DNA of 64,000 nucleotides from Bacteroidota bacterium (GTDB lineage Bacteria; Bacteroidota; Bacteroidia; UKL13-3): NCBI GenBank assembly GCA_027482225.1, contig JAIXWD010000016.1, positions 142,050 to 206,049 of the forward strand. Direction: 5' to 3'. The notes beneath the pieces were generated by a model. The model worked only from the letters and a program-made list of their open reading frames with translations, made no database searches and was not told where the DNA came from. The translations under genes were made by a program, and so were the position numbers. Positions 2,329 through 18,324 of the stretch are shown here, piece by piece; position 1 is the first letter of the stretch; each line of letters begins with the position of its first letter.

Positions 2329-2339
2329 TTTTATATTTA

Positions 2340-2933
2340 TCAAAGTTTGTATTTGTGAATACCTGTCCAATCTAAATTATTAATTGTAAAATTGTTATTG
2401 GTAAAAAATGTGTTTGGGTTAATTCCTGTATAAGCATGTATCTTCATTAAAGACTTCGCGCTTACAATTAGTTTACCATCTTTTATTTTAGGCTTGGTAT
2501 TGGTAATATTTTTAATAAGCATGCTATAATACCTATACTCTTCTATTGATTTTTTTCTATCAATTTTAAATATATCATTAGAATTATATAATTGGTTGCT
2601 AAGTATTAATTTAAATGGAACCAATTCTTCATGTCTTATGCTTTTTTTTATAAGCTGTTGTATATCTATGGTAAATAGCGGACTTAAAACTAAATCAAAC
2701 GAATTTATATTTAATGTTTGATTCCATTTTAATGTGTTTATTTTTTTGATTGTATCATCATCAAAAATGAATAAACCATTTATCCCTTCCATTTTCCCAG
2801 TTTTTTCTATTAACCTGGCCAGTTGGTTAAATTGTTCTGCATTATATTTAAACAATTGTATGTGTCTTTCTGAGTTTTCGTCAAAGCCTACATACGTTGT
2901 TAATGTTGGTTGCTCCGCAATTTGTGTTACCAT
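2340..2933 (-). CDS. Hypothetical cytoplasmic protein in an AT-rich gene with no recognisable domain
   Basis: Clean 197-aa ORF with no signal peptide. GC is much lower than neighbouring core genes (roughly 27% by eye). It is convergent with recO. Confidence 0.5.
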   Translation of the reverse strand: MVTQIAEQPTLTTYVGFDENSERHIQLFKYNAEQFNQLARLIEKTGKMEGINGLFIFDDDTIKKINTLKWNQTLNINSFDLVLSPLFTIDIQQLIKKSIRHEELVPFKLILSNQLYNSNDIFKIDRKKSIEEYRYYSMLIKNITNTKPKIKDGKLIVSAKSLMKIHAYTGINPNTFFTNNNFTINNLDWTGIHKYKL

Positions 2934-3045
2934 TAGTCGAAACTATCATGGTATTATGCAGTAAATTGTAGATTTTATTCTGTTAAAAAGATTATTAGTT
3001 CATCATATTGTTCAATTATTTTACCTATTTTATCCATATTATCGA

Positions 3046-3069
3046 TTTTGTAGTATTAAATCTACAAAA
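3046..3069. promoter_or_regulatory. 8-bp perfect inverted repeat (TTTTGTAG-n8-CTACAAAA) in the divergent intergenic region
   Basis: Read directly from the sequence. It lies between the divergently oriented 197-aa gene and the LuxR-type regulator gene. Confidence 0.35.
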
Positions 3070-3107
3070 AGTTCGATTAAATTCTTATTGATGCATCACC
3101 TTTTATA

Positions 3108-3136
3108 TTGATATTTGATTTCCATTAAAATATCAA
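3108..3136. promoter_or_regulatory. 9-bp perfect inverted repeat (TTGATATTT-n11-AAATATCAA), a candidate operator
   Basis: Perfect palindromic half-sites ending 21 bp upstream of the ATG of the LuxR-type regulator gene. Its size is typical of a dimeric HTH regulator site. Confidence 0.4.
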
Positions 3137-3156
3137 ACCATTTATATCATTAAACT

Positions 3157-3864
3157 ATGTTAAGATTTCTTTATTTAGACGAACATGAATTGTGTCGTAT
3201 TGGTTTCAAAACCATTTTATCCGAAATTTCACCTTCATATATTTTAGATGATGCAGCTAACGCTGAGGAATTACTTAGCCTCTTTAAATTGCATTCACAC
3301 AGCATTGTTATAATTGAAATTAACCTCACTAATACCAATGTATACGAATTAGTTCTACAGATTCTAGAATTAAATGACAATTGTAAAATATTAATCTTGT
3401 CTTCTTTAAGTGAAAAACTATATGCCATTAATTACATTAAAATTGGCGTTAAAGGATTTGTAGCCAAATACGAATCGGCTAAAACTATTAAAGAAGCAAT
3501 TAATGCTATGGTTAATAATAAACGCTTTTTTAGTGATACTGTTATTGATATGCTTTTAAATTTATCTTACAATACACCACGCTCTAATTTGGCTGATAAA
3601 CCTCATGTTAATGGAAGTAATAGGGTAATAGTTCAGCCCAAACTTAGTTTAAAAGAAAGTGAAATATTAAGGATGATTTTACAAGGTATGGGTACCAAAG
3701 AAATTGCTAATGCAAATAGCATAAGATTAAATACCGTTAGCACATACAAATCGAGAATTTTTGAAAAATTTAACGTGAAAAATCTTGTTGAATTAATGCA
3801 AATTGTGAAACAAAATAACATGTATGATGCCTCAGGAATTGAACAGCATTATACACAATATTAG
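3157..3864 (+). CDS. Atypical LuxR/NarL-family response regulator with a Glu at the phospho-acceptor position
   Basis: The C-terminal LuxR-type HTH (ESEILRMILQGMGTKEIANANSIRLNTVSTYKSRIFEKF) is clear. The N-terminal receiver-like domain aligns to NarL with conserved Ser/Thr (ILSSLSE) and Lys (GFVAKYE). The acceptor Asp is replaced by Glu (IVIIEINL) and the acidic pair DD is DE. Confidence 0.75.
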   Translation: MLRFLYLDEHELCRIGFKTILSEISPSYILDDAANAEELLSLFKLHSHSIVIIEINLTNTNVYELVLQILELNDNCKILILSSLSEKLYAINYIKIGVKGFVAKYESAKTIKEAINAMVNNKRFFSDTVIDMLLNLSYNTPRSNLADKPHVNGSNRVIVQPKLSLKESEILRMILQGMGTKEIANANSIRLNTVSTYKSRIFEKFNVKNLVELMQIVKQNNMYDASGIEQHYTQY

Positions 3865-4036
3865 TGGTTTTTTATTATTACCTTTTGATGCTATAGTGTA
3901 ATTTTTTTTAAATAAATTATTACATTTTTTTTCAAAAAGTAGAATTAATACTACGTTTTTTCTGCTATTACTCTACAAATGGTAAAAGACTAGCATACGA
4001 ATTTCGCATCGAATTTAAAATCAATCGATACGATCT

Positions 4037-7000
4037 ATGTTTAAAGTTACATCAATTAGGGTAATAACACTACTGTTATTAGTTTTTATTCATTTTTCTG
4101 GTCATTCTCAAAATACTTTAGATGGTGTTGGTTTAACCGCAGCAACACCTTCTACAGTTTCATTTAGTTTACGTAAATTAAGTTCTTCATACTCGGGCCC
4201 AGCAATCCAAGTTAGGCGCAGTTCCGATAACGCCACACAAAATATTGGCTTTGATGTGAATGGTAACCTAGATACTGCTGCTCTTATTTCATGGGTGAGC
4301 AGTGGGTCTGGTTTTGTTTCTATTTGGTATGACCAAAGTGGTAATGGATTAAATGCTACACAAGCTACAGCGGCTAACCAACCAGCAATTGTCATTTCAG
4401 GTAATATTAATAGATATAATGGAAGAGTTGCCATAAGTTTTGATGTTATTAGCCAGCACTTTGCTATTTCTTCATTACCCAACACTTTGGTATGGACTAA
4501 CGGTGTATCATCCAATGCAGTTGTTGCATTTAATAATAATGCAAATTGGGCAAGAGTATACGATTTTGGAAATGGAGCAGGAAATAATAACATTCTACTT
4601 ACTCGCAATAGTACTAGTAATACAATAACATTTAGTTTATATGATGGAGGTAATACAACTGCACAACCTTCCGTAACCAATGCTATATCAACAGGCATCA
4701 ATAATATTTATACTACCATTCAGTCGGCTGCTACTTACCCTGGTTCAGCGGCAACCAATATACGCGTAAATGGATCGGCACAAACAACTGCTCCAGCAAC
4801 ATCTAATATCACCCAGCAGGTTACACGTACAAGTAATTTTATTGGCAGGAGCAATTGGAGTGGTGATGCCTATTTTAATGGCAGTATGCAAGAGTTGTTG
4901 TTTTTTAATGTTGCTTTAACAACAACTCAGGCTCAAACACTTGAAAATAGTCAAAGTAGTTACTATTCAATAAATCAACCAACTATCACAAGTACCGCAA
5001 CAGGTGGTAATTGGACAAGTCCTTCAACTTGGGTTGGAGGTGTTGTGCCAAGCAGCACTAATAACGTGGTAATTGCAACTACAGGAGCAAATGCTGTTAC
5101 ATTAAATACGACTGCTACTGTAAATAACTTGGTAATTAATAGTAACTCTAGATTAAATACCGGAGTAAATTCAATAAGTGTATCAGGAGCATTAACATGT
5201 AATGGGATAATATTAACAGCTAGTAGTCAAGGTGTAATTGGAACATTTCCCGGGTTACCATTAAATCGAATTATTTTAAATACGGGTTCTACTGTAGATT
5301 ACATCGGAACAACTTCACAAAATATTTCACCATTAACTTATGGTAATTTAACAGTAAGCAATACTTCTGCACCTAGCACTTTAACAGGTACAACAAGTGT
5401 AGCAGGAAATTTAACCATAAATACCTCTGCTATTTTAGATAAAAGTACTTTTGGTTTAACAGTTAGTAATACTATTTTTAATAACGGAACTTTTAGAACA
5501 AGTGGTGGACGACTTTCAACAGCTGGTGGTACTGCTTATAATTTAGCTTTTGCTACTGGTGCAAATACCTTAGATACTTTAATCGTGAATAGGTCAGCAC
5601 CCATTACATTAACTTCGCCATTAACTATAAATAACTTATTAACGTTAACCAGTGGTATACTAACGGTACCTGCTGGTAATTTAACCCTTTCAACTAATGC
5701 AATTGCAACAGGTGGTTCTAACACTGCATTTATAAACGGACAAGTAATTGTTAATACAAATACCACAAACAGCAGAAACATACCTTTAGGCAAAAACAAT
5801 TTACTTGGTTCAATATCTCTAATGCCTGAATCATCTGCGGCATCAACCTATACTTTAGAGTATTTTAATGGGGCTGGTGTTACTCCTAATTCAGGAAACT
5901 TAGGGGCAGGTTTAGCAGGTGTTGCTACCAATCAATTTTGGAGTATAACTAAAATTGGTACTAATGCTTCATTTACCTTCAATTACAATAGTTCACCGGG
6001 AGGTACCAATGCTCAACAAATTACATTAGTTAAGCGTACAGGAGGTCAGTGGGTTATACAACCAACCTATAGTAGTAGCATGGCTAACGCTTCTAGTGGG
6101 CAAGCCACATCTGTAAATGCCATTACTGGTAGTTATGGTGATTTTGGTTTAGGATTTATTAATGGAGCAGCTGAAAATGGTTTAGATAGTATAGGTTTAA
6201 CAGCCGCTACACCTGCTGCTGCAGCTTATGCCATGCGCAAATTAAGAAGTGCATACAATGGAGCTGCCTTACGTATTAGAAGAAGCAATGATAATTTAGA
6301 AACCAACATTGGTTTTGATGCAAATGGTCATTTAGATACAACTGCAATTAAAACTTTTACGGGTGTAAATGATGCTTATGTTACCACATGGTACGACCAA
6401 AGTGGTAATAACCGTAATTTTATACAAAACACCCTTGCCAACCAACCTCGAATTGTGTTAGCAGGTGTAATAGATCGTAAAAACGGACAGCCCGCCATTA
6501 GGCATTTGGCAGCAAATACCCATAACCTTAATGTTAATACAGGTGGTTTTGTAACCAATAATAACCCCTGGAGCGTAAGCACTGTATCTGGTTTAGATGG
6601 TGGTGCAAACCAAAGGGTGCTAAGTGGTAACACCAATTGGTTTTTAGGATTTCATGGTGGAGGTGAGAGAAGAGCCTTTTTTGCTAATGTATGGATGCGA
6701 TACAATGGGGTAGATAATTATAACAACGCCACAGCAACTACAAACAACCAAATATACACTGCCGTATCTAATGGAAGCAGCGCAAGTGTATTTAACAATG
6801 GTATGCAATTAGCGGGCACTGTGCCTTCAGGAAATACCTCAATTGGAACATTGTCTACAGGTGGTGGTTTTGGTGAATTCTCAAACTGTGTGGTTCAAGA
6901 AGTAATCATCTTTTCATCAGCTTTATCTTCAGCAAATAGAGCAAGTATAGAGCGAAGCCAAGGACTATATTATGCCATTGGTAATTTTGCCATAAGCACG

Positions 7001-10000
7001 CCTGCAGGTGGTAATTGGAGTAACCCAGCAACTTGGGAAAATGGGGTAGTGCCCACAACATCATCAGATGTGGTGATAAACGCAACAGCAGGTGCTGTGG
7101 TTTTAGATATAAATACCAGTATACGATCAATTAATAACGCACATTTGGCCACCCTAAATTTAGGAGCCGCCAATAACATTACAACGTCTTTAGATGTGAT
7201 TAACCAAGGCACATTAATTACTGCACATCCAAACGGATTAATAGGTAGTAGTGCATCTTTAAATATTGGTGGTACCATTTTAAATACGGCATACAATACC
7301 AGTCGTGTGGTATACAATGGAGCTAATCAATTGGTTAATCCGATATCTTATCGAAATTTAAGTTTATTAAATACGAGCAGTACAAAAACATTGCTTATAG
7401 GTTCGGTAACAACAGTTAGCGACACACTTTTTATAGATAATGGTGTTACGTTTAATAAATCAGCGAATGATTTAAACCTAGCTTGTTTAACTGGCACGGG
7501 TTTATTGTCATCTACAGGTGGTTTACTGCGTTTTAATACTTTTAATATTGCCAATATTGGAACATTACGCATGGCACCTGCTCCCAATAATTCTGTTGCA
7601 TTATTTATTTTATCTAATTTTTTCGCTAATGCATCTTTAACATTGGGTACACCATTGCAAGTAACAACAGATGCTACCTTAGATGCTGGAATTTTAAATA
7701 CCGATTCTGTAAACATATTAAGTCTAATAAATGCAAGTACTATAATGAGTAGGTGGAGCCCCGCTACATTTGTTAATGGCCCTGTTCAATTAATAAGTTC
7801 TTCTATTACCACAAGACAAATTGCAGTTGGTAAAAATGGTACGGGAAATCGAATTTTTATTACACCGCAATCTACTGCTACTACTGTATATAATATTGAG
7901 TATTTTAAAGGAAATGGCAGCGTACCTAACACGTCAAGTTTTGATAGTATTGGTTTGTTTAAAGTATATGATAACCAGTATTGGCGCATCAACAGAACAT
8001 CGGGTGTGGCTAATATTAGGGCTGAATTCGCTTTGAATACAGCTATTAACGGTGGCGTTGCCACAGAAACAGTAACTTTAGCCAATTTTGTGGGTGGTCA
8101 GTGGGTTTCTGTTCCAATTGATAGATTTTTATCGGCTACTGCAGCATTACCTACAGCTATTGCCACCCCTGTGGCAATTAGTAATACGGGGTTATTTGCA
8201 TTTGCCAGCGAAAAAGCAATTGCAACAGCACAAAGTGGCGCATGGAATAACCCCAACACATGGGCTGGTGGATTGGTACCCTCTGTATTTCAATCAACTT
8301 TTATTTCGCCTGGCCATACAGTTGCTGTTTCATCTGCGGCTGAAGCATTAAGTATTACGGTTGCTGCTGGCGCTACATTAGATTTAACTACCAACCAAAT
8401 TACTGGAACCTCGAGTGGTATAATAAATAATGGCACAATATTAACTTCACGCAATGCAGGTTTAATAGGAAGTGGCGCATCTTTACCTGCATGCAATACA
8501 ACTAATACCATTTTAAATGCTGGCAGTAGGGTTATTTATAACGGTGGAGGAGCACAAACAATAAGTGCTCTTACCTACAGGAAATTAACCATAAACAATT
8601 CAGCTTCTACTAAAACATTAGCCGGTAACACGGTTGTTTCCGATTCTTTAACTATTAGTACATTATGTACACTAAATAAAGGGGGATTTAATTTAAATTT
8701 AAACAATGGTATTTTTGGTAGCGGATTTTTACAATCAACAGGTGGTGCTTTTACACTTAGTGGTAATGCATTAAGAAACACCATACAGCTAAATAATTTT
8801 GCCAATACTACAATAAATATTAACTCAACGGCATCTGTTACTGATGTTAGTGCAATTACCCACAGTGGTTTAACTTTAAACATGCAAGCAACTGGTGCAA
8901 CCGACACTGTAAATTTAGTTACACCGCTTTCTGTTGCAAATATTTCGTTGTCTTCAGGATTCATTAAAACAGATTCCATTAATATTTTAACATTAACCGG
9001 AAACGGTACTTATGGTTCAAATGCTTCATACATTAATGGACCTGTGCAGTTTAATACCAGTTCAACCAACAACGTAATACTTGGTTTGGGTAAACAGGGC
9101 ACTTCAAGTAATGTAATAATTACCCCAACTACATCAGTTGCTACCGTTTGGCGAGCAGAGTACTATAGAAGTACACCAACTGCCGCACCTTTAGCTTCTA
9201 ATTTGTTGGGTTTAGGTAATAATCATTATTGGACACTAAGCAGAAACAACACCAACAACGCCATAGTTTCTGTTGGTATTAATCAAGCTGCTGGTGGCAC
9301 ATCTGCCAATACTTTAAAGATGGCTATGTTTACCAACAATACGTGGGGTAATGTACCCATAACAGAAAATACAATATTGGCTAATACCAATATAGCTACA
9401 ATAACATCAGCATCAAGTGTGGTTTTAAATAGCAGTGCTGGTGAAATAGATTATTTCGCATTAGGATTTGGCTCATTGCCTGGTGCACTTCACACTATTG
9501 CAAATGGTAATTGGACTAATCCTGCAATATGGAGCACCAATATTGTTCCATCTACAGGCGATAGCGTAACCATACGCACAGGTTTTACTGTAAATTTAGA
9601 TACAACTATTTTACCAGGTACAGGTCCAAGCACAGTATTAATTCAAACAAATGCTAAACTTAATATCAATTCGGGAGTTATATATTACAACTCTGGAGCT
9701 AATAATAATTTAGTACAAAGCTTAATAACTACAGGTGCTAATCCTTCTGTTGTGTTGGGTTTAAGAAGGCTTTCATCAACATACAATGGTCCTGCAATAC
9801 AGGTAAGAAGGGGTAGTGATAATGTCCTACAAGATGTATTTTTTACATCAGCTGGTAATTTAAATACCAGCACCTTATTGAATTTTGCAGCGGGTTCAAG
9901 TTTGTTTGTGGTAAGGTGGTACGATCAATCTGGTAATGGAAGAGATTTTGTACAAAATACGCCAGGTAACCAACCACGAATTGTAAACAATGGGGTATTA

Positions 10001-13000
10001 GAAATCAAAAATAACCAACCCGCCATAAGGCACATAGCCGCTAATAACAATTTCTTATTTGGTGGTTCGTTGGGTTTAGCTAATAATTTCTTTACCGTAA
10101 ATGTAGTGTCTTCTAATGATGGCGCCACAACAGGCCGGATGTTATCATCTGAAGCCAATAATTGGATGCTAGGCTTTCATCCGGGTATAGAACGTACTGC
10201 ACATTTTGGTGGTGGGAATTGGCAAGTTTACAACACACCTACTACCCCAGCTAACCAAATTTATACCGCTGTTGGTCAAAATACTAATAATGCATTAATA
10301 TATAGAAACGGAACTTTACTACCATTATTGGCTGTGCCATCTAACCGCCCAATTGATTTGAGAACCGCAGGAGCTTATGCTCAGTGGGCTGATGGAACCA
10401 TGCAAGAAATAGTAATTGTACCAACTGCATTAAATGATGCTCAAAGGAACTCAATTGAAAATTCGCAACAATCTTATTATTTAAATGGGGTTTCATTTAT
10501 AACAACTAATGGTATCATCAACAATGGTACAATAGGAATTGCAGATGCCAACGGGTTAGATTCTGCTGTTGTTGGTACTGGTCCAATTTTTAATTCAAGT
10601 TCAACTTTAAATTACAATGGTAGCAGTCAAAATATAACAGCAGTTGTAGCTTCCAATTTGGTATTATCTGGTTCGGGTACTAAAACAATGGTTGGCGATG
10701 TTACTGTTACAGGAAATTTAACGGTTAACAGTGGAATAACGTTTAACAAATCAAACCGCAACTTAAGTTTTTCAGGAACCACCATTACCAATAATGGTAT
10801 AATGCAATCTACGGGAGGTACTTTATCACTTACAGGTAGTGGTAACATTAACATTGGGTTTAATGATGCTACAAATAATGTGTTAGGTAATTTAGTATTA
10901 AGCAGGGGAGGTTCTCATACGCTAACAAATCCTTTAACGATTAATACAAGTATTGCATTAAACAATGGTATTTTAAATACTACAGTTACAAATATAATTA
11001 ACCTTGGTGGCAAAGCAACTACAATAGGTGGCAGTAATACCAGCCACATCAACGGGCCATTAAATTTAATTACAAATTCCTTGTTTCAAAGAACTGCACC
11101 TATAGGTAAAAACAATATGTATGCTCCAGTTCAAATTCAACCACAAACACAAACACAAACAACATACACTGTGCAATACTTTAATGGTGCAGGTGTTACA
11201 CCAAATTCCAACAACAGAGGCCCAGGTATTATAGGTGTTGCAACCAACCAATATTGGAGTATTACCAGAAATAACAGTAACAATGCCATTGTAGGTGTTG
11301 GTTTTAACACAAGTGCAGGTGGTACCAGTGCACAGCAATTGGTGCTAGCCAACAAAATTATCAACACTTGGACACGTAACTCAGTAAACAATACCATATT
11401 AGGTAATGCAATATCAGGTAATTTTGCAACGCAAAGTTTTGTTTCAAATTTTGGTGATTTTACTTTAGGTTACACAAGTGCGTTACCAGATAATGGCTTG
11501 GATAGTTTGGGATTGAATAACACCACAACAACTTCACTTGCTTTAAGCCTACGCAGGTTAAGAAGTGCTTACCAAGGCCCTGCTATAAGGGTTAATCGTT
11601 TAAGAGATTCTGCCGAATTAGACATTTATTTCCAAGACAATGGTTTTTTAGATACCTTAACCTTAAAGAATTTTGCAGCAGGCGCAACAGGAGAAAACTT
11701 GGTTACGTTTAGCGAGGATTTTGATAATTCGGTTTACATCAGAAATGGATCCTCAGCATACAGTATTTTTCCTAATGTAGCCCTTTCACCAATTGGCACA
11801 CTTACTGCCGATTCTATGAACCTAGGTCGCACCAATGGGCAGTGGGATGTGTTTCGTCAAATAAATAATTTAGTAATTGGGCGTACCTATACTTTGTCTA
11901 TGTATATAAGGCTAGGTACTGCCAATAATTTTAATGTGGTTGTAAATAATACCGCTGCTTGGAACACCATTGGTGGTAATTCTTATAATGCCAGCAATGC
12001 CTCATTAAATAATGCAACATGGCAGCGCATAAGCTATACTTTTGTTTGCCCTGCAACCGGTAGGGTTAACGTGCATTTAGGTAGCCATGGCGGTAATCAA
12101 ACTGGCGTTACAGCACAAAGCAATGGTTCTGTTTATATTTGGGGTTTTCAGCTAGAAGAAGGGAGTTCTGCTAATATGTATATTGCCACTGGGCCAATTA
12201 GCATACTTAATTCCGTTAACGTAAAAACATGGTACGATCAAAGTGGTAATGGAAGGCATGCAGTACAAAATAATATTTTTTTACAACCCACTTTAACCTT
12301 AAATGGTGTAATTAATTACATGAATAACAAACCATCTATGTTATATGATGGTGTTGATGATGGTTTTTTAATTAATAACATACCAACAGTTAATAACAAT
12401 GTAAATAGCTTATTCTGGGTGCAACGCGCTACAAAAAACACATACATGAATTTATTCCCTAATACATCTCCCTCAAACGGAATAATCAATTCGGGTAATA
12501 GAATGTTGTTAGCCAGTTTAGGCGATGGAAGTACGGACGTAATAACGGGATTAACCAATAATATTTCCTCGTTTTTAATTAATGGTTTCCAAACAGGTTG
12601 GAGCTCATCTACCACGCGAAATGTGGTTCATCAAGCTTTACAATTTAATCCGTCTATTGTTAATTCGTTAAACCAGCCGTTTAACTTTAATGGTAATATG
12701 GTAATAGCTAACGGACATACAGGTTGGAATTTTGGTGGTGATATGCCCGAAATAGTGGTAACTACTTCTACGTTAGATAGTGCAAGACGCGTTGCGGTTG
12801 AATTAAGTATGGGCAGGTATTATGGCATTGTTACCAAAGAAAGTGATGCTTGGGTAAGTACAGATGTTGGTGGAAACTGGAGCGATATCAATACTTGGGT
12901 ACAAAACTCTGTACCACCTGCAGGAGCAGCTATTGCCATTGCAACAAAGGGAAATAATAGTGTAGTATTAGATACAACCATGACATTCTCTGGTATTACC

Positions 13001-16000
13001 GTGCGTGCAGGTGCAACCCTTAATTTAGGCAATAGTAGAACAACCACATTAAGCGGCCAATTAATTAATAATGGAACTATTATCACATCACATCCTAATG
13101 GTTTAACTGGTGTTTCTGCATCTGTAGTAGGAACAGTAACGCATAATATTGGAAGTACAATTATTTATAATGGTAGCAGCCAAATAGTCACTCCAACAAG
13201 TTACCGAAACTTAAGGGTAAGTGGATTAAATACCATAAAAACAATGGCAATGGGGGCATTAACAGTAAATGATACCCTTACTATAGATTCTGGAGTAACG
13301 TTTGTACAATCAAACAGTGCATTAACTTTAAACGGTAATATATCTGGTACTGGTTTTTTACGACCTAATCCAAGCAATGCAATAAGTATTGGTGGGGGTA
13401 ATGGTGGTAATTTCGGAACTATTCATTTTGATACCCTTACTAATATGAATATAGTGGGTACATTTACTTTAAATAGATCTGGAATTAATCCGTCACTAAC
13501 ACTTGGAAATAACTTACAAGCAAACTCATCAGTTAACCTAAACAATGGATTATTAAATACAAGTAATGGTGCCCTACTAATATTAAATAATATTGGTACA
13601 ATTGGTTCAGGTGGTTCGTATATTAATGGCCCTGCTAGGTTAATTAATGCATCAACTAATACAAATAGAACGATTCACGTAGGTAAAAATGGTCTTTTAG
13701 GAGCAGTTACAATCAATCCTGGTGCAACAAGTTCTACCTCTTGGGATGTTCAATACTTTGGAAGTACACCTGCAAATATTGGTAATGTTAGTGGTACTAT
13801 ATCATCATTAAGCCCAACACAGTATTGGAGTGTAACCAAAAACAGCTCACCAGCTGCAAGTCCAATTTTAGCATTTAATTTTAACCAAGCTCCGGGCGGG
13901 TTGGCAACATCAAGTTTGGCATTGGTAAGGTATCTAACCAATTGGCAGTTGGTGCCTGTTACAGCAAATAGCCTTAATGGTTTATCAGCAAGTGGTACCT
14001 TAACTACTTCTGGTTCTGTATCGTTTCCTGTTGGAGTAAATGGCAATGATTTTGCAATTGGTTATCCAGCACCATTTGAAACTAAAAAATCGGGTAATTG
14101 GAGAGATACATCTGTATGGGTTATGGGTGCAGTTCCTCCTTTGGGTTCAAGGGTATTTATAAGAGCTTCTCATGTGGTTACCGTAGATACTACAATTGCA
14201 ACAGCAGGTACACCATCAAGTATATCTATTTTAAATGGAGGGGAGTTGGTATTCAATTCAATAAATACAATTGGTGCTGTGGCAAGTGGAGTAACTGTTG
14301 CAGGAACTTTAACCACTGCTCATGCTGGTGGAATTAGCACAAGTATAGCGGGCACTATTACCTTTAGTAATGGTAGCCGTTTACGCTACAATGGAGCAGC
14401 TCAAAATGTAACAGCGATAGATTGTGAAGAGCTTGTATTAGAAGGTTCTGGAACAAAAACGCAAACAGGAGCAATATTGGTGAACGATACATTATTAATT
14501 GGTAATGGAATTACGTTTGCTAATTTAACACAAACACTTACTCTATATGGTAATTATGTGTCAAATGGTGGAGGCATAAGTAGCAGCAATGGGAATATAA
14601 TTGTTGGTGGATCGTTAGGTGGTCATTTTGGTAGTTTAAACTTATCTGGAACATTGGCAAACTTTACATTTAGAAGATATGGATCATCACCATCTTTAAA
14701 TGTGGTTAATCCGTTTAGCGTAGCTAATTTAGTTATCGAAAATGGGATAATAAACACAGATACTAACAATGTAATTACATTAACAGGATCGGCAACTTTA
14801 GGTTCATCATCTGCCCATATCAATGGTCCAATAAGGGTAATAACCACATCAGTTTCACCTTTAATTTTACCAATTGGTAAAGGAGGAATTTTAGGTTCTA
14901 TTAATTTTACTCCAAGTACCGCTTCAACAACAACTTGGTATGCCGAGTACTTTAATGCGGCACCAGGAAATACCAATGTTGATACAACCATTAGTTCAAT
15001 AAGTGCATCACAATATTGGTTGTTTAGCCGCTTATCAGGTACAGCCAATGCCGCAGTTACTTTTAATTTTAATAAATCTGCAGGAGGTAACTCATCACAG
15101 GCAATTACTTTAGCACGTTTTGCTTCATCAGCTTGGACACTTCAAAATACGGCATTAAATAATTTAAATGGTGCCACCGTAAATGGTTCATTAAGTTTGC
15201 CAACGCAATCTTTATTCAGTTATTTCGGTGTTGGGTTTTTTAATGAGTTTTTTTCTGTAGCCTCTGGCAACTGGTCTAGTCCTTCTACTTGGAATACCAA
15301 TTCGGTTCCTACATCATCTGCTCGAGTTACCATAAATTCAGGACATGTTGTTAATGTTTTAGGTACCATTAATCCTAAAAGTATAATAATAGAGGCAAAC
15401 GCCCAACTTAACTTAGATACTTTCCAAGTAATTGGTCAGGATGTTACAGTTGATTTAATAGGTACAATTGAAACGGCTCGTGCAGGTGGGTTAATAGGCA
15501 CAGGTGCATCCATTGAACAAGGTAATATTTTGTTAGGTTCATTCGCCAAGGTAGTATACAATGGCTCGGTTCCGCAAGTATTATCGCCATTAAGTTACCG
15601 TAAATTGGTTATAGCAAATCCAGCGGGAGTAACAGCAGGTAACAATCTTATACTTGGCGATTCATTCATTGTATCTTCAGGATTTTTAAATCTCTCAACA
15701 TTCAATCTTACATTAACCGGTGGCTTTAATATGGAATCTAATGCTAGGGGTATTAGAGCAAGTGGAAACAATAACATACAGATTTCATCATCAGGTAATC
15801 TTATGATGGATACCACTGTTAGAGGTGTTACAAATAGGTTGGCTAACTTAACTATAACTGGATCTAATTTAGTAACGCTTTTAAATTTCCTTGAGGCCAA
15901 AGTAGAAGTTAGTGTGAGTGGAGCTAATTTAAACAGCAATGGATTTCTAACATTAATTTCTGATTCATTAGGCACTGCAAGAGTAGCTGCATTGGTATCG

Positions 16001-17662
16001 CCTGCTCAAATAACAGGTAATGTAATTGTGCAGAGGTATATTCCTGCTATAACCCGTAGATCTCGACAGCTTACTTCACCAGTGACTGGTTTTACCTATA
16101 ATCAATTAATTGATGACATTTTCGTTACTGGCCCTGTCGGTGGTATAGGATTCGATATTTCTACTACCAATAATGCATCAATTAATACTTATAACGAACA
16201 AACATCTAACGGAAGGGGCAATAAACCAGTCCAAAATATTAATGACACATTGTTGCCAGGTTTAGGGGCTTTTGTTTTCATTAGGGGAGACCGAACTCTT
16301 CCTTCGCCACAATGGTTTACTCCACCGTTTGTGCCACAAAATGCAGTTACATTAGATTTTGTTGGACCAATTAATCAAGGAGTAGTTTCTCCGCAAATAA
16401 CCTATACACCCACAGGTACACCAACTAATGATGGTTGGAATATGGTAGGAAATCCTTTCCCATCACCAATTGATTGGAGCTTGGTAAATAAAACTGGTTT
16501 AACACCTTTTTACTATACACTAAATCCTTCAACAGGTTCATCTGTGGCTGCTAATGTAGGTATTATAGCATCTGGTCAAGGTATATTTGTACAAGCCTCA
16601 TCAGCTAATCCTACCATTACTTTTAGTGAGTCTTCAAAAGTTTCTGGTACTCCTACAAATTATTTTAAAACCAGTACACCGCCATTATTAATTACCATGA
16701 CAAGGGATGCATTAAATAGTGATGTTGCTATGATGAATTTTAATGCAACATATAGCAGGTCATTTAACAATATGGAAGATGCCTTTAAAATGACAAATGC
16801 TGTTATAAATCTTTCTTTATATGCTGGTACAACGCCTGTTCAAATAAATGGTTTACCAATATTATCTCCATTGGCAACTGATACGTTTGATATAGGTGTA
16901 GATGCTTCTGCTGGTAATTATTCTTTACGATTTAATAATTTAATTGCTATACCAACTGGCTTAAATAGTTATTTAATAGATAGGATGCTTAATACCACTT
17001 TACCAATAGTTGCTGGTGTTGATTATCCGTTTAGTATATCAAGCAGCCCTGCATCGTTTGGTAAAAGATTTGCGATTGTTTTTTCTCCGCTTAATCCTTT
17101 ACCTATTAAGTTACTTAGCTTTAATGCAGCTAAAAGTAATGATAACGTGGTGTTAAATTGGCGCACAGCTTCCGAGTTAAATATGCAAAGTCATATTTTA
17201 GAAAGAAAACTTAGCACTGATTTAACATTTAAAGAAATAGCAGTTATTAAGCCTAATACGGGTGCAGTAGTTGCAACTAACTATGCATACACCGATGCTG
17301 ATATACTAAATAATGCCAGTGGTTTAATATGCTACAGGATAAAGTTGGTAGAAACAAATAAATCATCGTTAAACAGTCATGTTGTTTGTATAGATCCAGT
17401 CATTACAACATCTGCAGCCAACATTTTACTGTTACCAAACCCAGCTCAAGAGGGCGATGTGGTAAAATTAAAAATAGCAGGTTTACAATACGATAGTTAT
17501 GAAATACATGTTGTTGATCTGCTAGGAAGAGTAATACATAAGCAACTAAGTACTACAAACGATATAGATATTGATACCAAACAATTTGATTCTGGTATTT
17601 ATAATATTTTGTTGTTGTCTGATGGCGTTTTGTTGGGAACATCAAAGTTATCAATACAATAA
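4037..17662 (+). CDS. Giant (4541 aa) T9SS-secreted cell-surface protein containing signal peptide, repeated LamG-like jellyroll domains, seven beta-solenoid-like supermodules, one CBM-like insertion, a conserved pre-CTD domain and a type-A T9SS CTD
   Basis: Uninterrupted 13.6 kb ORF. The N-terminal signal peptide is MFKVTSIRVITLLLLVFIHFSGHSQ. The motif (R/K)(K/R)L(S/R)S.Y.GPAI.V.R..D followed by WYDQSGNG....QP.IV recurs at ~4325, 6389, 9917 and 12229. Seven G(G/N)W..P.TW..G.VP...D.V.I motifs occur at ~5004, 7007, 8237, 9506, 12869, 14093 and 15266, each followed by YNG..Q.V...SYR.L, INGP and EYF.G...YW motifs. The C-terminus (LLPNPAQEGDVVKLKIAG...GIYNILLLSDGVLLGTSKLSIQ) is a Por secretion tail. 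Confidence 0.85.
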   Translation: MFKVTSIRVITLLLLVFIHFSGHSQNTLDGVGLTAATPSTVSFSLRKLSSSYSGPAIQVRRSSDNATQNIGFDVNGNLDTAALISWVSSGSGFVSIWYDQSGNGLNATQATAANQPAIVISGNINRYNGRVAISFDVISQHFAISSLPNTLVWTNGVSSNAVVAFNNNANWARVYDFGNGAGNNNILLTRNSTSNTITFSLYDGGNTTAQPSVTNAISTGINNIYTTIQSAATYPGSAATNIRVNGSAQTTAPATSNITQQVTRTSNFIGRSNWSGDAYFNGSMQELLFFNVALTTTQAQTLENSQSSYYSINQPTITSTATGGNWTSPSTWVGGVVPSSTNNVVIATTGANAVTLNTTATVNNLVINSNSRLNTGVNSISVSGALTCNGIILTASSQGVIGTFPGLPLNRIILNTGSTVDYIGTTSQNISPLTYGNLTVSNTSAPSTLTGTTSVAGNLTINTSAILDKSTFGLTVSNTIFNNGTFRTSGGRLSTAGGTAYNLAFATGANTLDTLIVNRSAPITLTSPLTINNLLTLTSGILTVPAGNLTLSTNAIATGGSNTAFINGQVIVNTNTTNSRNIPLGKNNLLGSISLMPESSAASTYTLEYFNGAGVTPNSGNLGAGLAGVATNQFWSITKIGTNASFTFNYNSSPGGTNAQQITLVKRTGGQWVIQPTYSSSMANASSGQATSVNAITGSYGDFGLGFINGAAENGLDSIGLTAATPAAAAYAMRKLRSAYNGAALRIRRSNDNLETNIGFDANGHLDTTAIKTFTGVNDAYVTTWYDQSGNNRNFIQNTLANQPRIVLAGVIDRKNGQPAIRHLAANTHNLNVNTGGFVTNNNPWSVSTVSGLDGGANQRVLSGNTNWFLGFHGGGERRAFFANVWMRYNGVDNYNNATATTNNQIYTAVSNGSSASVFNNGMQLAGTVPSGNTSIGTLSTGGGFGEFSNCVVQEVIIFSSALSSANRASIERSQGLYYAIGNFAISTPAGGNWSNPATWENGVVPTTSSDVVINATAGAVVLDINTSIRSINNAHLATLNLGAANNITTSLDVINQGTLITAHPNGLIGSSASLNIGGTILNTAYNTSRVVYNGANQLVNPISYRNLSLLNTSSTKTLLIGSVTTVSDTLFIDNGVTFNKSANDLNLACLTGTGLLSSTGGLLRFNTFNIANIGTLRMAPAPNNSVALFILSNFFANASLTLGTPLQVTTDATLDAGILNTDSVNILSLINASTIMSRWSPATFVNGPVQLISSSITTRQIAVGKNGTGNRIFITPQSTATTVYNIEYFKGNGSVPNTSSFDSIGLFKVYDNQYWRINRTSGVANIRAEFALNTAINGGVATETVTLANFVGGQWVSVPIDRFLSATAALPTAIATPVAISNTGLFAFASEKAIATAQSGAWNNPNTWAGGLVPSVFQSTFISPGHTVAVSSAAEALSITVAAGATLDLTTNQITGTSSGIINNGTILTSRNAGLIGSGASLPACNTTNTILNAGSRVIYNGGGAQTISALTYRKLTINNSASTKTLAGNTVVSDSLTISTLCTLNKGGFNLNLNNGIFGSGFLQSTGGAFTLSGNALRNTIQLNNFANTTININSTASVTDVSAITHSGLTLNMQATGATDTVNLVTPLSVANISLSSGFIKTDSINILTLTGNGTYGSNASYINGPVQFNTSSTNNVILGLGKQGTSSNVIITPTTSVATVWRAEYYRSTPTAAPLASNLLGLGNNHYWTLSRNNTNNAIVSVGINQAAGGTSANTLKMAMFTNNTWGNVPITENTILANTNIATITSASSVVLNSSAGEIDYFALGFGSLPGALHTIANGNWTNPAIWSTNIVPSTGDSVTIRTGFTVNLDTTILPGTGPSTVLIQTNAKLNINSGVIYYNSGANNNLVQSLITTGANPSVVLGLRRLSSTYNGPAIQVRRGSDNVLQDVFFTSAGNLNTSTLLNFAAGSSLFVVRWYDQSGNGRDFVQNTPGNQPRIVNNGVLEIKNNQPAIRHIAANNNFLFGGSLGLANNFFTVNVVSSNDGATTGRMLSSEANNWMLGFHPGIERTAHFGGGNWQVYNTPTTPANQIYTAVGQNTNNALIYRNGTLLPLLAVPSNRPIDLRTAGAYAQWADGTMQEIVIVPTALNDAQRNSIENSQQSYYLNGVSFITTNGIINNGTIGIADANGLDSAVVGTGPIFNSSSTLNYNGSSQNITAVVASNLVLSGSGTKTMVGDVTVTGNLTVNSGITFNKSNRNLSFSGTTITNNGIMQSTGGTLSLTGSGNINIGFNDATNNVLGNLVLSRGGSHTLTNPLTINTSIALNNGILNTTVTNIINLGGKATTIGGSNTSHINGPLNLITNSLFQRTAPIGKNNMYAPVQIQPQTQTQTTYTVQYFNGAGVTPNSNNRGPGIIGVATNQYWSITRNNSNNAIVGVGFNTSAGGTSAQQLVLANKIINTWTRNSVNNTILGNAISGNFATQSFVSNFGDFTLGYTSALPDNGLDSLGLNNTTTTSLALSLRRLRSAYQGPAIRVNRLRDSAELDIYFQDNGFLDTLTLKNFAAGATGENLVTFSEDFDNSVYIRNGSSAYSIFPNVALSPIGTLTADSMNLGRTNGQWDVFRQINNLVIGRTYTLSMYIRLGTANNFNVVVNNTAAWNTIGGNSYNASNASLNNATWQRISYTFVCPATGRVNVHLGSHGGNQTGVTAQSNGSVYIWGFQLEEGSSANMYIATGPISILNSVNVKTWYDQSGNGRHAVQNNIFLQPTLTLNGVINYMNNKPSMLYDGVDDGFLINNIPTVNNNVNSLFWVQRATKNTYMNLFPNTSPSNGIINSGNRMLLASLGDGSTDVITGLTNNISSFLINGFQTGWSSSTTRNVVHQALQFNPSIVNSLNQPFNFNGNMVIANGHTGWNFGGDMPEIVVTTSTLDSARRVAVELSMGRYYGIVTKESDAWVSTDVGGNWSDINTWVQNSVPPAGAAIAIATKGNNSVVLDTTMTFSGITVRAGATLNLGNSRTTTLSGQLINNGTIITSHPNGLTGVSASVVGTVTHNIGSTIIYNGSSQIVTPTSYRNLRVSGLNTIKTMAMGALTVNDTLTIDSGVTFVQSNSALTLNGNISGTGFLRPNPSNAISIGGGNGGNFGTIHFDTLTNMNIVGTFTLNRSGINPSLTLGNNLQANSSVNLNNGLLNTSNGALLILNNIGTIGSGGSYINGPARLINASTNTNRTIHVGKNGLLGAVTINPGATSSTSWDVQYFGSTPANIGNVSGTISSLSPTQYWSVTKNSSPAASPILAFNFNQAPGGLATSSLALVRYLTNWQLVPVTANSLNGLSASGTLTTSGSVSFPVGVNGNDFAIGYPAPFETKKSGNWRDTSVWVMGAVPPLGSRVFIRASHVVTVDTTIATAGTPSSISILNGGELVFNSINTIGAVASGVTVAGTLTTAHAGGISTSIAGTITFSNGSRLRYNGAAQNVTAIDCEELVLEGSGTKTQTGAILVNDTLLIGNGITFANLTQTLTLYGNYVSNGGGISSSNGNIIVGGSLGGHFGSLNLSGTLANFTFRRYGSSPSLNVVNPFSVANLVIENGIINTDTNNVITLTGSATLGSSSAHINGPIRVITTSVSPLILPIGKGGILGSINFTPSTASTTTWYAEYFNAAPGNTNVDTTISSISASQYWLFSRLSGTANAAVTFNFNKSAGGNSSQAITLARFASSAWTLQNTALNNLNGATVNGSLSLPTQSLFSYFGVGFFNEFFSVASGNWSSPSTWNTNSVPTSSARVTINSGHVVNVLGTINPKSIIIEANAQLNLDTFQVIGQDVTVDLIGTIETARAGGLIGTGASIEQGNILLGSFAKVVYNGSVPQVLSPLSYRKLVIANPAGVTAGNNLILGDSFIVSSGFLNLSTFNLTLTGGFNMESNARGIRASGNNNIQISSSGNLMMDTTVRGVTNRLANLTITGSNLVTLLNFLEAKVEVSVSGANLNSNGFLTLISDSLGTARVAALVSPAQITGNVIVQRYIPAITRRSRQLTSPVTGFTYNQLIDDIFVTGPVGGIGFDISTTNNASINTYNEQTSNGRGNKPVQNINDTLLPGLGAFVFIRGDRTLPSPQWFTPPFVPQNAVTLDFVGPINQGVVSPQITYTPTGTPTNDGWNMVGNPFPSPIDWSLVNKTGLTPFYYTLNPSTGSSVAANVGIIASGQGIFVQASSANPTITFSESSKVSGTPTNYFKTSTPPLLITMTRDALNSDVAMMNFNATYSRSFNNMEDAFKMTNAVINLSLYAGTTPVQINGLPILSPLATDTFDIGVDASAGNYSLRFNNLIAIPTGLNSYLIDRMLNTTLPIVAGVDYPFSISSSPASFGKRFAIVFSPLNPLPIKLLSFNAAKSNDNVVLNWRTASELNMQSHILERKLSTDLTFKEIAVIKPNTGAVVATNYAYTDADILNNASGLICYRIKLVETNKSSLNSHVVCIDPVITTSAANILLLPNPAQEGDVVKLKIAGLQYDSYEIHVVDLLGRVIHKQLSTTNDIDIDTKQFDSGIYNILLLSDGVLLGTSKLSIQ
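4990..16100 (+). repeat. Seven diverged intragenic tandem supermodules of ~1.2 kb (~400 aa) within the giant gene, repeated at protein level
   Basis: The ordered motif series GxW..P.TW / YNG..Q / INGP / EYFxG..YW recurs seven times. There are no long identical DNA repeats, so the duplication is ancient or diversified. Confidence 0.6.
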
Positions 17663-17679: not shown

Positions 17680-18324
17680 ATGAATTTGGCATATCAAATT
17701 ATTATAAAGAGGGGAGTTTTTTTCAGTTTATTATTTTTAACAGCTTTCGATTCCATAGCCCAAAGCGCTTATGGTCAAGCGGGGGATGATGATATCTATA
17801 GTGACTATGGTTATCAGTATTCAAACTATTCTAATTCTGTTTATGAGTTTTCTGAAGAAGAAAAATATAGAAAAAGGCAAGAACGGTTTTATAAAAAAAG
17901 CTACGATGAAGAAGATTTATATAATGGTGGATACAGGGTGAAAAGTCGTTCATCGGAAGTTGATTATTACGCTTTTGGAGGTATTGGCTCAGGTAATATT
18001 GGTAATAGCGTTAAATCATGGTTTAATAGAGACAGTAAAAATGAATCACCTTTACCGAGTAACCAAGAAAAATATAACAACAACGAGGTTGGAACAATTG
18101 ACGGCATTGATAGGTTGGGTGAGGATGGAAAAAGCGGTTTAGCCAACAACAAAGATAATGGTGAGATTTTACAACCAAAAGATGATAAACAAACCGAAAC
18201 CGCACCACCACCGCCAGATGAACCTGATATTCCAATTACAAGTCCTTTATTAAGTATACTCATGATTGTTATAATGATAGGTGTAGCTGTTTTTAACTTA
18301 TCAAACAGATTTAAGATATTATGA
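17680..18324 (+). CDS. Tail-anchored secreted protein that is acidic, Tyr/Asp/Glu/Asn-rich low-complexity, and has a Pro-rich stalk and C-terminal transmembrane helix
   Basis: It has a signal peptide (FFSLLFLTAFDSIAQSA), low-complexity acidic region, PPPPDEPDIP stretch and a C-terminal hydrophobic helix (LLSILMIVIMIGVAVF). It starts 18 bp after the giant gene's stop codon. Confidence 0.55.
   Translation: MNLAYQIIIKRGVFFSLLFLTAFDSIAQSAYGQAGDDDIYSDYGYQYSNYSNSVYEFSEEEKYRKRQERFYKKSYDEEDLYNGGYRVKSRSSEVDYYAFGGIGSGNIGNSVKSWFNRDSKNESPLPSNQEKYNNNEVGTIDGIDRLGEDGKSGLANNKDNGEILQPKDDKQTETAPPPPDEPDIPITSPLLSILMIVIMIGVAVFNLSNRFKIL

What the first reader, a model, noticed from the sequence alone, without database searches (positions are those of the whole stretch)
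3157..3864. LuxR-family response regulator with Glu replacing the phospho-acceptor Asp (pseudo-receiver)
Aligned to NarL, the receiver-like domain keeps the conserved Ser/Thr (ILSSLSE) and Lys (GFVAKYE). The acceptor position in the beta3 strand is Glu (IVIIEINL in place of the usual LDLNMP) and the N-terminal acidic pair is DE rather than DD. An Asp-to-Glu change at this position acts as a phosphomimetic or phosphorylation-independent state in other regulators, such as the atypical HP1043/FrzS/NblR-like regulators. The regulator next to the giant cargo gene is therefore probably not controlled by the nearby kinase through canonical phosphotransfer.
Basis: partly seen in the sequence, partly recalled or inferred. 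Interest (0 to 1): 0.6.

Follow-up and report, generated by a model that had tools for sequence, protein, structure and literature searches.

The report
Aspartate-less LuxR-type regulator beside giant adhesin gene
The gene encodes a two-component-type transcription factor whose phosphorylation-site aspartate is a conserved glutamate, a common and already described kind of "pseudo-receiver", so it is a fairly ordinary find, although it sits in a conserved gene module with a giant secreted protein and a sensor-less histidine kinase.

Summary
ORF 3157-3864 (+) encodes a 235-aa REC + LuxR/GerE-HTH protein. Glu54 (GAA, 3316-3318) occupies the phospho-acceptor column, aligning without gaps to VraR D55 and EvgA D52, and it ends strand beta3 in an AlphaFold model. 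D8/E9, S82, F101 and K104 are kept. All 28 family sequences (down to 53% identity) carry Glu, and the receiver domain is as conserved as the HTH. This is a functional aspartate-less receiver (ALR), not decay or error.

The class is known: about 4% of receivers are ALRs and Glu is the commonest replacement (26%). AtvR, CmrT and ChxR are described precedents.

New here:
- A 16-bp 7-2-7 palindrome, GTAG-N8-CTAC, lies upstream of the regulator gene (3050-3065) and of the giant T9SS cargo gene (3939-3954). It starts 60 bp before a -7-like promoter box wherever both could be read.
- The module 197-aa gene / regulator / giant gene / 214-aa / 378-aa / input-less HisKA kinase is co-conserved.

Most likely mechanism: a phosphorylation-independent, probably constitutively active-like, autoregulated activator of the giant-gene operon.

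Verdict: new member of a known kind, modest interest.

The parts
3157..3864 (+). Gene for the 235-aa aspartate-less NarL/LuxR-type regulator: REC residues 1-122, long linker about 138-159, GerE HTH 161-222
   Evidence: ORF. Pfam REC 47.4 bits and GerE 57 bits. AF2 model, and Foldseek top hits VraR/EvgA/LiaR/RcsB/NarL.
3316..3318 (+). Codon GAA = Glu54, in the phospho-acceptor column at the C-terminal end of beta3
   Evidence: Aligns to VraR D55 and EvgA D52. Beta3 is residues 50-54 in the model. Glu in 28/28 family sequences. Codon read.
3178..3183 (+). Codons for the acidic pair D8-E9 (DD motif, second residue Glu)
   Evidence: Invariant in the family. Column counts.
3400..3402 (+). Codon for Ser82 (conserved T/S position at the end of beta4)
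   Evidence: Invariant. Aligned to the VraR Thr. Beta4 is residues 77-82.
3466..3468 (+). Codon for Lys104 (conserved K after beta5). Phe101 (K-3 switch residue) lies at 3457-3459
   Evidence: Invariant. Beta5 is residues 100-103.
3568..3633 (+). Family-specific expanded interdomain linker (residues about 138-159, disordered in the model)
   Evidence: pLDDT below 50 for residues 138-159. The span 126-163 holds 37-38 residues in every family member, against a median of 23 and a maximum of 32 in 154 relatives.
3050..3065 (.). Candidate operator B, GTAGTAT-TA-AATCTAC (7-2-7 palindrome), upstream of the regulator gene
   Evidence: One of only 2 matches to GTAG-N8-CTAC in 64 kb (expected 0.36). Conserved in L001, L002, L005, L008, L011/L012 and L013. 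Starts exactly 60 bp before the -7-like box in all 8 loci.
3939..3954 (.). Candidate operator C, GTAGAATTAATACTAC, upstream of the giant gene. Its reverse complement matches operator B at 15 of 16 positions
   Evidence: (I6, 94% complementary). Starts 60 bp before the -7-like box in the window and L001.
2968..2983 (.). Candidate operator A, GTAGATTTTATTCTGT, near the start of the divergent 197-aa gene
   Evidence: Third and last zero-mismatch hit to the degenerate box in 64 kb. Conserved in L008 and L013, with one or two changes in L001/L002.
3110..3117 (+). -7-like promoter box GATATTTG (7 of 8 matches to the Bacteroidetes TAnnTTTG consensus) for the regulator gene
   Evidence: ATATTTGA is invariant in all six aligned loci. 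Spacing. The consensus itself is from my own knowledge.
3999..4006 (+). -7-like box GAATTTCG (GAATTTTG in L001) for the giant-gene operon
3108..3136 (.). Present in the window but not conserved
   Evidence: Sequence. The right arm degenerates in L002 and the segment is absent in L011/L013.
2340..2933 (-). Divergently transcribed 197-aa protein of unknown fold, always paired with the regulator gene
4037..17662 (+). Giant 4541-aa T9SS cargo protein, the presumed regulated target
   Evidence: Por_Secre_tail at residues 4467-4528, ArabFuran-catal-like and G8-like repeats. Orthologous in L008 (68%) and L016 (73%).
17680..18324 (+). 214-aa low-complexity protein with hydrophobic N- and C-termini, second gene of the presumed operon
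   Evidence: Sequence. Conserved in L014/L015 and L016.
18321..19457 (+). 378-aa protein with an N-terminal hydrophobic, signal-peptide-like segment, weak OM beta-barrel and SPOR-like matches
   Evidence: (sub-threshold hits).
19464..20177 (+). 237-aa input-less HisKA + HATPase histidine kinase, last gene of the module
   Evidence: Pfam. H21, N142, G1, F and G2 boxes invariant in orthologues. It is the only kinase in the 64 kb, and the regulator holds the only receiver domain. Co-conserved module.

Best explanation
The gene encodes a functional aspartate-less receiver (ALR, or pseudo-receiver) fused to a LuxR/GerE helix-turn-helix. In other words, it is an atypical NarL-family response regulator that cannot be phosphorylated on the canonical site.

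**Shown:**
- Glu54 sits in the acceptor position.
- The rest of the pocket (D8, E9, S82, F101, K104) and the whole receiver domain are under purifying selection.
- The family also lost the Pro at D+4 and gained about 14 linker residues.
- A conserved 16-bp 7-2-7 palindrome (GTAGWWT-WW-AWWCTAC) lies at a fixed 60-bp distance from a -7-like promoter box upstream of the regulator gene in all eight loci, and at 60-61 bp upstream of the giant T9SS-cargo operon in the four loci where that promoter can be read.

**Inferred:**
- The protein dimerises and binds these palindromes, roughly 65 bp upstream of the start site. A third box lies at the divergent promoter.
- It thereby activates its own gene and the operon giant gene / 214-aa / 378-aa / kinase.
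- Glu54, contacting S82 and K104, biases the receiver towards the active-like conformation, and the long linker frees the HTH. Activity would then be set mainly by how much protein is made (positive autoregulation) rather than by His-Asp phosphotransfer.
For: - **Domain calls and acceptor column:**
- **Conservation of the Glu:** 28/28 family sequences carry it, while 145 of 154 relatives have Asp.
- **Receiver domain under selection:** it is 52-94% identical across the family, against 61-100% for the HTH, with 52 of 122 residues invariant.
- **Further family changes:** D+4 Pro is lost (133 of 154 relatives have it), K+2 Glu is invariant, and the linker is 37-38 residues against a median of 23.
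- **Operator boxes:** GTAG-N8-CTAC occurs only at 3050 and 3939 in 64 kb (expected 0.36). The degenerate box has zero-mismatch hits only at 2968, 3050 and 3939. The boxes are conserved in loci down to 53% protein identity, including both flanks of the gene in L012 and L013. The 60-bp spacing is exact in 8 of 8 loci.
- **Operon structure:** gaps of 17 and 6 nt and a 4-nt overlap, with no terminator on the coding strand.
- **Literature:** Glu is the commonest ALR replacement and can be phosphomimetic. AtvR and CmrT (D-to-E) are inferred to be constitutively active, and SecR (a NarL/RcsB-like ARR) is a phosphorylation-independent, positively autoregulated dimer (PMC4395418, PMC12632262, PMC12548384, PMC13199381).
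Against: - No experiment exists, so binding of this protein to the boxes is inferred only from position, palindromic 7-2-7 form and conservation. Another factor could bind them.
- D-to-E alone is often not enough for constitutive activity (CheY, PhoB, Spo0A), and in ChxR the Glu is dispensable (PMC4395418).
- An intact histidine kinase and an unknown 197-aa protein are co-conserved with the regulator. That hints at additional input beyond simple control by expression level.
- The domain arrangement in the AF2 model is uncertain (pTM 0.58).
Confidence: 0.6

Rival explanations
1. Non-canonical partnership with the co-conserved kinase. The input-less HisKA kinase at the end of the operon controls the Glu-receiver regulator, or is controlled by it, through binding rather than phosphotransfer. 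This could be allosteric activation, sequestration, or feedback from the operon's own product.
For: - The regulator holds the only receiver domain, and this is the only kinase, in 64 kb.
- Kinase orthologues have the same narrow phyletic spread as the regulator family: 96-54% against 94-53% identity.
- The whole module lies on one 127-kb contig (L015 + L017) at 75-78% identity.
- The module survives in L016 although the downstream flank differs.
- The kinase's catalytic boxes are invariant.
- A paper title (PMC4251995, seen but not read in detail) describes kinase-driven allosteric activation of response regulators 'beyond phosphorylation'. That it concerns the NarL-family DesK-DesR pair is from my own knowledge.
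- The pseudo-receiver review considers such models for CmrT/CmrS.
Against: - The kinase keeps every residue needed for catalysis, which suggests it has a real phospho-acceptor somewhere. That acceptor could simply be encoded outside the window.
- The kinase is of the HisKA type. From my own knowledge, NarL-type regulators usually pair with HisKA_3 kinases.
- Co-conservation may only mean that the kinase is a regulated product of the operon.
Confidence: 0.15
2. Heterodimer or auxiliary model. The Glu-receiver protein acts with a canonical Asp-containing NarL-type regulator encoded elsewhere, which would be the true substrate of the module's kinase. This would resemble WhiI/BldM or CmrT/CmrR.
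For: - Precedents are described in the review and the CmrT paper.
- An intact kinase without a canonical partner in the window needs a substrate.
- The receiver dimerisation surfaces are conserved.
Against: - No second regulator lies in the module in any locus examined.
- The operators are symmetric palindromes, which suits a homodimer.
Confidence: 0.1
3. Control by the divergently encoded 197-aa protein, or by a small ligand. The partner would act as an anti-activator or co-factor (as MirA does for the ARR Rem), or a ligand would bind the altered beta3-alpha3 region (as in JadR1 and RedZ).
For: - The 197-aa gene is always divergent from the regulator gene, even at 37% and 53% identity respectively, and has the same lineage-restricted distribution.
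- Operator-like box A lies in its promoter region.
- The review lists partner-protein and ligand control of pseudo-receivers and notes changes in the beta3-alpha3 loop.
- The family's loop has lost the D+4 Pro.
Against: - The 197-aa protein has no recognisable domain or fold, so nothing links it to regulators beyond gene position.
- It may simply be another regulated target.
Confidence: 0.1
4. The Glu is a sequencing error, or the gene is a decaying, non-functional remnant of a two-component system.
For: GAA differs from the Asp codons GAT and GAC by a single base.
Against: - Glu is present in 28 independent sequences from several metagenomes and MAGs.
- The reading frame is intact, and the receiver is as conserved as the HTH.
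- Pocket residues are invariant.
- The operators are conserved.
Confidence: 0.01

Closest known systems
AtvR of Pseudomonas aeruginosa (atypical NarL-family response regulator)
   Same: It has a NarL/LuxR output and Asp-to-Glu at the phosphorylation site, and keeps T/S, K and the aromatic residue at K-3. It is inferred to be active whenever expressed (PMC12548384).
   Different: It is not an orthologue: the best non-family relatives of the window protein are at most 38% identical, and these are unnamed NarL-type regulators. AtvR lacks one DD residue and keeps Pro at D+4. This family keeps both acidic residues (D-E) and has lost the D+4 Pro. AtvR is not described as linked to a kinase or a T9SS cargo operon.
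CmrT of Clostridioides difficile (CmrRST system)
   Same: It has Glu at the acceptor position (E53) with few other deviations. It is one of the few characterised pseudo-receiver regulators that are not orphans, being encoded with a histidine kinase.
   Different: CmrT has an OmpR-family output. Its operon also encodes a canonical regulator (CmrR), whereas no second regulator is present here. Its kinase is adjacent rather than separated by a 13.6-kb gene.
ChxR of Chlamydia trachomatis
   Same: It is a natural Glu-for-Asp aspartate-less receiver and a phosphorylation-independent, dimeric DNA binder that is autoregulatory.
   Different: It belongs to the OmpR/PhoB family, and its Glu was shown not to be required for DNA binding. 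It is not homologous beyond the REC fold.
SecR (RcsB-like atypical regulators of Alphaproteobacteria)
   Same: It has a NarL/RcsB-type architecture and is a phosphorylation-independent homodimer. It shows positive autoregulation and activates an adjacent operon through a conserved motif. Some homologues retain linkage to a kinase gene.
   Different: It comes from a different lineage and has a different target pathway (the serine cycle). I did not establish which residue replaces the Asp in SecR.
Canonical NarL/VraR/EvgA-type response regulators
   Same: Same fold and domain order. They are the best sequence and structure matches. From my own knowledge of NarL, the 7-2-7 palindromic operator architecture is also shared.
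   Different: They carry the acceptor Asp and depend on a cognate kinase. Their linkers are about 14 residues shorter.

Membership tests
Receiver domain (REC, PF00072), canonical phosphorylatable form | (beta-alpha)5 fold recognised by the REC profile | tested here: met
   47.4 bits against a cutoff of 30.2, covering profile positions 3-111 of 111. The AF2 model has five strands and five helices. Foldseek finds VraR, EvgA and NarL.
Receiver domain (REC, PF00072), canonical phosphorylatable form | Asp phospho-acceptor at the C-terminal end of beta3 | tested here: not met
   Glu54 aligns to VraR D55 and EvgA D52. Beta3 is residues 50-54. There is no Asp in residues 46-63.
Receiver domain (REC, PF00072), canonical phosphorylatable form | Acidic pair after beta1 (DD) | tested here: met
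   D8-E9. Both are acidic and invariant in the family.
Receiver domain (REC, PF00072), canonical phosphorylatable form | Thr/Ser at the end of beta4 and Lys after beta5 | tested here: met
   S82 and K104 are invariant.
Aspartate-less receiver (ALR) / pseudo-receiver | Recognised as REC but lacking the D residue (definitions in PMC4395418 and PMC12632262) | tested here: met
Aspartate-less receiver (ALR) / pseudo-receiver | Absence of phosphorylation in vitro or in vivo | not testable with these tools
   Needs acetyl-phosphate or kinase phosphotransfer assays.
NarL/FixJ (LuxR/GerE-HTH) response-regulator family | C-terminal GerE-type four-helix HTH | tested here: met
   PF00196 at 57 bits against a cutoff of 23.5. 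Helices at 165-175, 180-186, 191-204 and 210-219.
NarL/FixJ (LuxR/GerE-HTH) response-regulator family | Membership of a named equivalog (FimZ, UvrY/GacA, EvgA, NarL, and so on) | tested here: not met
   The best NCBIfam scores are 85 and 83 bits against cutoffs of 271 and 280.
Classical two-component pair | Adjacent cognate histidine kinase, usually HisKA_3 for the NarL family (own knowledge) | tested here: not met
   No kinase is adjacent. The only kinase in 64 kb is a HisKA-type, input-less protein 15.6 kb downstream.
Classical two-component pair | Kinase and regulator co-inherited | tested here: met
   Same phyletic spread and same contig.
Autoregulated transcription factor with a palindromic operator | Conserved palindromic site in its own promoter and the target promoter | tested here: met
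Autoregulated transcription factor with a palindromic operator | Direct binding of this protein to the site | not testable with these tools
   Needs EMSA, footprinting or ChIP.

The most novel reading that the evidence does not exclude
The Glu-receiver regulator and the input-less but catalytically intact HisKA kinase form a co-evolved two-component module that no longer uses His-Asp transfer between them. The kinase, co-transcribed with the giant T9SS cargo and two envelope proteins, would report on cargo production or secretion. It would feed back on the regulator by binding, or act through a third, unlinked regulator that heterodimerises with it. This would be a pseudo-receiver wired into a secretion-coupled feedback loop.
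Probability: 0.12. Interest if true: 0.6.

Novelty: new member of a known kind. Interest (0 to 1): 0.3.

Why it matters
Pseudo-receivers are common, but how they are switched on and off is largely unknown (PMC12632262). Nearly all characterised bacterial examples are orphans.

This lineage-restricted family from freshwater Bacteroidota offers a clean case:
- The phospho-acceptor Asp-to-Glu change is the only alteration among the five defining active-site residues. Outside that set the family also lost the D+4 Pro, fixed Glu at K+2 and gained a longer linker.
- It has a well-defined, conserved operator and promoter architecture.
- Its likely target is a 4541-aa T9SS-secreted surface protein.
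- A kinase and an unknown protein are co-inherited with it.

If studied, it could show how giant adhesin-like T9SS cargoes are regulated. It could also show whether a kinase can remain functionally tied to a receiver that has lost its aspartate. As a sequence observation alone it is ordinary.

Tried and rejected
1. **Alternative register giving an Asp.** Rejected. The alignments around beta3 are ungapped and no Asp is nearby.
Rejected, because it is not conserved.
3. **More related loci.** Genome and metagenome scans gave only 2 + 1 close loci. The rest came from exact look-ups.
5. **Sigma-70 promoter and terminator scan.** Uninformative for this Bacteroidota-like sequence, and it found no terminators around the gene.
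6. **Rfam on 2300-4300.** Nothing credible.
7. **MAFFT alignment of the two promoters.** It chose a different register and was not useful. An ungapped comparison from the box start gave only 40 of 101 identities, within background. The shared features are therefore the box, the proximal TCT and the -7-like box, not overall similarity.
8. **Other receivers or kinases in the window.** None found.

Full report
**1. Observation**

The window holds an uninterrupted ORF at 3157-3864 (+) of 235 aa. Pfam finds a full-length receiver domain (PF00072, 47.4 bits, residues 6-116 on profile positions 3-111 of 111) and a GerE/LuxR HTH (PF00196, 57 bits, residues 163-216). NCBIfam places it nearest FimZ, UvrY/GacA, EvgA and NarL, but far below every equivalog cutoff.

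- Ungapped phmmer alignments to solved structures put the query's E54 (IVIIE54INL) opposite the acceptor Asp of VraR (LILMD55LLM) and EvgA (IVIID52VDI).
- The same alignments put D8-E9 opposite VraR's DD, S82 opposite its Thr and K104 opposite its Lys.
- An AlphaFold2 model (mean pLDDT 77; REC blocks mostly 84-95, one block of 67) gives strands 2-7, 28-33, 50-54, 77-82 and 100-103. E54 therefore ends beta3, and the other pocket residues sit at their canonical loop positions.
- Foldseek returns VraR, EvgA, spr1814, ChrA, LiaR, RcsB and NarL.
- The codon is GAA at 3316-3318.

**2. Is it real and selected?**

The indexed protein search found seven close cluster representatives (94-54% identity) and then a gap to at most 28%. 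The exhaustive search of 1.84 billion representatives found only one other 50% cluster (P0006, 59%) before dropping to 38% identity.

- All 28 available family sequences have Glu at the acceptor column.
- D8, E9, S82, S83, F101 and K104 are invariant.
- The receiver is as conserved as the HTH: 52-94% against 61-100% identity, with 52 of 122 and 32 of 62 residues invariant. The linker and tail drift.
- Among 154 more distant NarL-type relatives the column is D in 145, E in 7, H in 1 and S in 1. The seven other Glu forms are at most 40% identical to one another and no closer to the query than the Asp forms, so the D-to-E change is recurrent.
- The family has further fixed differences. Pro at D+4 (present in 133 of 154 relatives) is S, T or A in all members but one. 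Glu is invariant at K+2. The span between residues 126 and 163 holds 37-38 residues, against a median of 23 and a maximum of 32.

**3. Surroundings**

The source is a freshwater Bacteroidota lineage. The related MAG contigs are labelled 'Bacteroidetes bacterium' and 'Chitinophaga pinensis'.

The gene order is:
- PorZ-like T9SS protein and RecO;
- a 197-aa unknown protein on the minus strand;
- the regulator;
- a 4541-aa protein with a T9SS C-terminal sorting domain;
- a 214-aa protein and a 378-aa protein;
- a 237-aa HisKA + HATPase kinase.

The last four genes are separated by 17 nt, a 4-nt overlap and 6 nt, which suggests an operon. Within the 64 kb the regulator holds the only receiver domain and this is the only kinase.

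The kinase has no input domain. It keeps the H, N, G1, F and G2 boxes in all orthologues. Its nearest non-orthologous relatives are REC-HisKA-HATPase hybrids.

Kinase orthologues occur at 96, 94, 94, 91, 75, 75, 56 and 54% identity, which mirrors the spread of the regulator family. Three results show the module is co-inherited:
- On one 127-kb contig the 197-aa gene, the regulator, a 4516-aa giant gene, the 214-aa and 378-aa genes and the kinase are all present (L015 + L017).
- In L016 (kinase 56% identical) the giant-gene tail (73%), the 214-aa (44%) and 378-aa (49%) homologues and the kinase persist although the downstream genes differ.
- The 197-aa gene stays divergent from the regulator gene even in the most distant lineage (L011).

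**4. Candidate operators and promoters**

The pattern GTAG-N8-CTAC occurs only twice in the 64 kb (0.36 expected). One copy is at 3050-3065, upstream of the regulator gene. The other is at 3939-3954, upstream of the giant gene. The two are 15 of 16 identical when one is reverse-complemented.

A degenerate form has zero-mismatch hits only at these two sites and at 2968-2983, next to the divergent 197-aa gene. The boxes are invariant in L001, L002 and L005, and recognisable in L008, L011/L012 and L013 on both sides of the regulator gene.

Each box reads as two inverted heptamers separated by 2 bp (GTAGTAT-TA-AATCTAC). From my own knowledge, this is the 7-2-7 layout known for NarL.

In all eight loci the box upstream of the regulator starts exactly 60 bp before an invariant ATATTTG(A) element. 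That element resembles the Bacteroidetes -7 box TAnnTTTG (my own knowledge). Upstream of the giant gene, the window and L001 show the same 60-bp spacing to GAATTTCG or GAATTTTG, and L002 and L008 have a TTTG one base further on. A proximal TCT-containing element sits at +34 to +36 from the box start in both promoter types.

Its right arm decays in L002, and the segment is missing where the ATG follows the box directly (L011-L013). It is therefore not a good operator candidate.

**5. How it most likely works**

Shown:
- The protein is a conserved, selected Asp-less receiver fused to a LuxR HTH.
- Palindromic boxes at fixed promoter geometry flank its gene.
- It is co-inherited with the giant-gene operon.

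Inferred:
- The protein binds the boxes as a dimer and activates its own promoter and the giant-gene operon from about position -65.
- Glu54, together with S82 and K104, favours the active-like state, and the long linker relieves receiver-HTH occlusion.
- Output then depends on protein level, through positive autoregulation.

This matches what is proposed or shown for AtvR, CmrT, ChxR and SecR.

Caveats:
- D-to-E is not always activating.
- The intact co-conserved kinase and the unknown 197-aa protein suggest extra inputs. The rival models are kinase binding without phosphotransfer, heterodimerisation with an unlinked canonical regulator, and control by a partner protein or ligand.

**6. Comparison with what is known, and novelty**

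About 4% of receiver domains lack the Asp, roughly two per bacterial genome. Glu is the most frequent replacement (26%), and LuxR/GerE is the second most common DNA-binding output (PMC4395418). The 2025 review defines such domains as pseudo-receivers or ALRs. [quoted passage not shown]

The finding is thus a new member of a known kind. Two aspects are mildly unusual: the sole change among the five defining active-site residues is at the acceptor, and the regulator is inherited together with an input-less kinase in a module that contains no canonical regulator.

**7. Verdict**

Novelty is low and interest about 0.3.

The most novel reading not excluded is a non-phosphotransfer kinase/pseudo-receiver feedback loop tied to secretion of the giant T9SS cargo (probability about 0.12).

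Noticed in passing
window 7-1560 (+): This is the C-terminal part of a PorZ-like T9SS component (Reg_prop, Por_Secre_tail). The full-length orthologue is 771 aa with a PorZ_N beta-propeller in L017/L018. It lies two genes upstream of the regulator and of the giant T9SS cargo gene.
   Followed up: partly
window 2340-2933 (-): A 197-aa cytoplasmic-looking protein with no detectable domain or fold, found only in this lineage. It is always divergently paired with the Glu-receiver regulator, and an operator-like box (2968-2983) lies in its promoter region.
   Followed up: yes
L011 1101-1114; L012 83-96; L013 362-376: In the two most divergent lineages the regulator's ATG follows the -7-like box AATATTTG by only 4 nt, which implies a leaderless or near-leaderless mRNA. 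The window lineage has an extra leader of about 39 nt.
   Followed up: partly
window 19464-20177 (+): This histidine kinase consists only of DHp and catalytic domains (237 aa, with no TM, PAS or other input). Its nearest non-orthologous relatives carry an N-terminal receiver domain as input (REC-HisKA-HATPase, 360-405 aa).
   Followed up: partly
window 4037-17662 (+): The giant 4541-aa protein has three stretches matching the N-terminal part of the alpha-L-arabinofuranosidase B catalytic-domain profile. It also has G8-like repeats, internal repeats of about 30-38% identity and a T9SS C-terminal domain. Its N-terminal 1340 residues are 68% identical in L008.
   Followed up: partly
window 17680-18324 and 18321-19457 (+): Two conserved proteins lie between the giant gene and the kinase. 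One is a 214-aa low-complexity protein with hydrophobic N- and C-termini. The other is a 378-aa protein with an N-terminal hydrophobic, signal-peptide-like segment and sub-threshold OM beta-barrel and SPOR-like matches.
   Followed up: partly
window 3075-3086 and 3966-3977: Both promoters carry a conserved proximal element, GATTWWWTTCTT upstream of the regulator gene and CTCTAC(AA) upstream of the giant gene. Each places a TCT at +34 to +36 from the operator start. It may be an extra half-site or part of the -33 region.
   Followed up: partly
L017 9793-9921; L018 6584-6712: A 42-aa ORF was called by the source annotation inside the intergenic region between the regulator gene and the 197-aa gene. 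It overlaps the operator and promoter region and is probably a spurious call.
   Followed up: no
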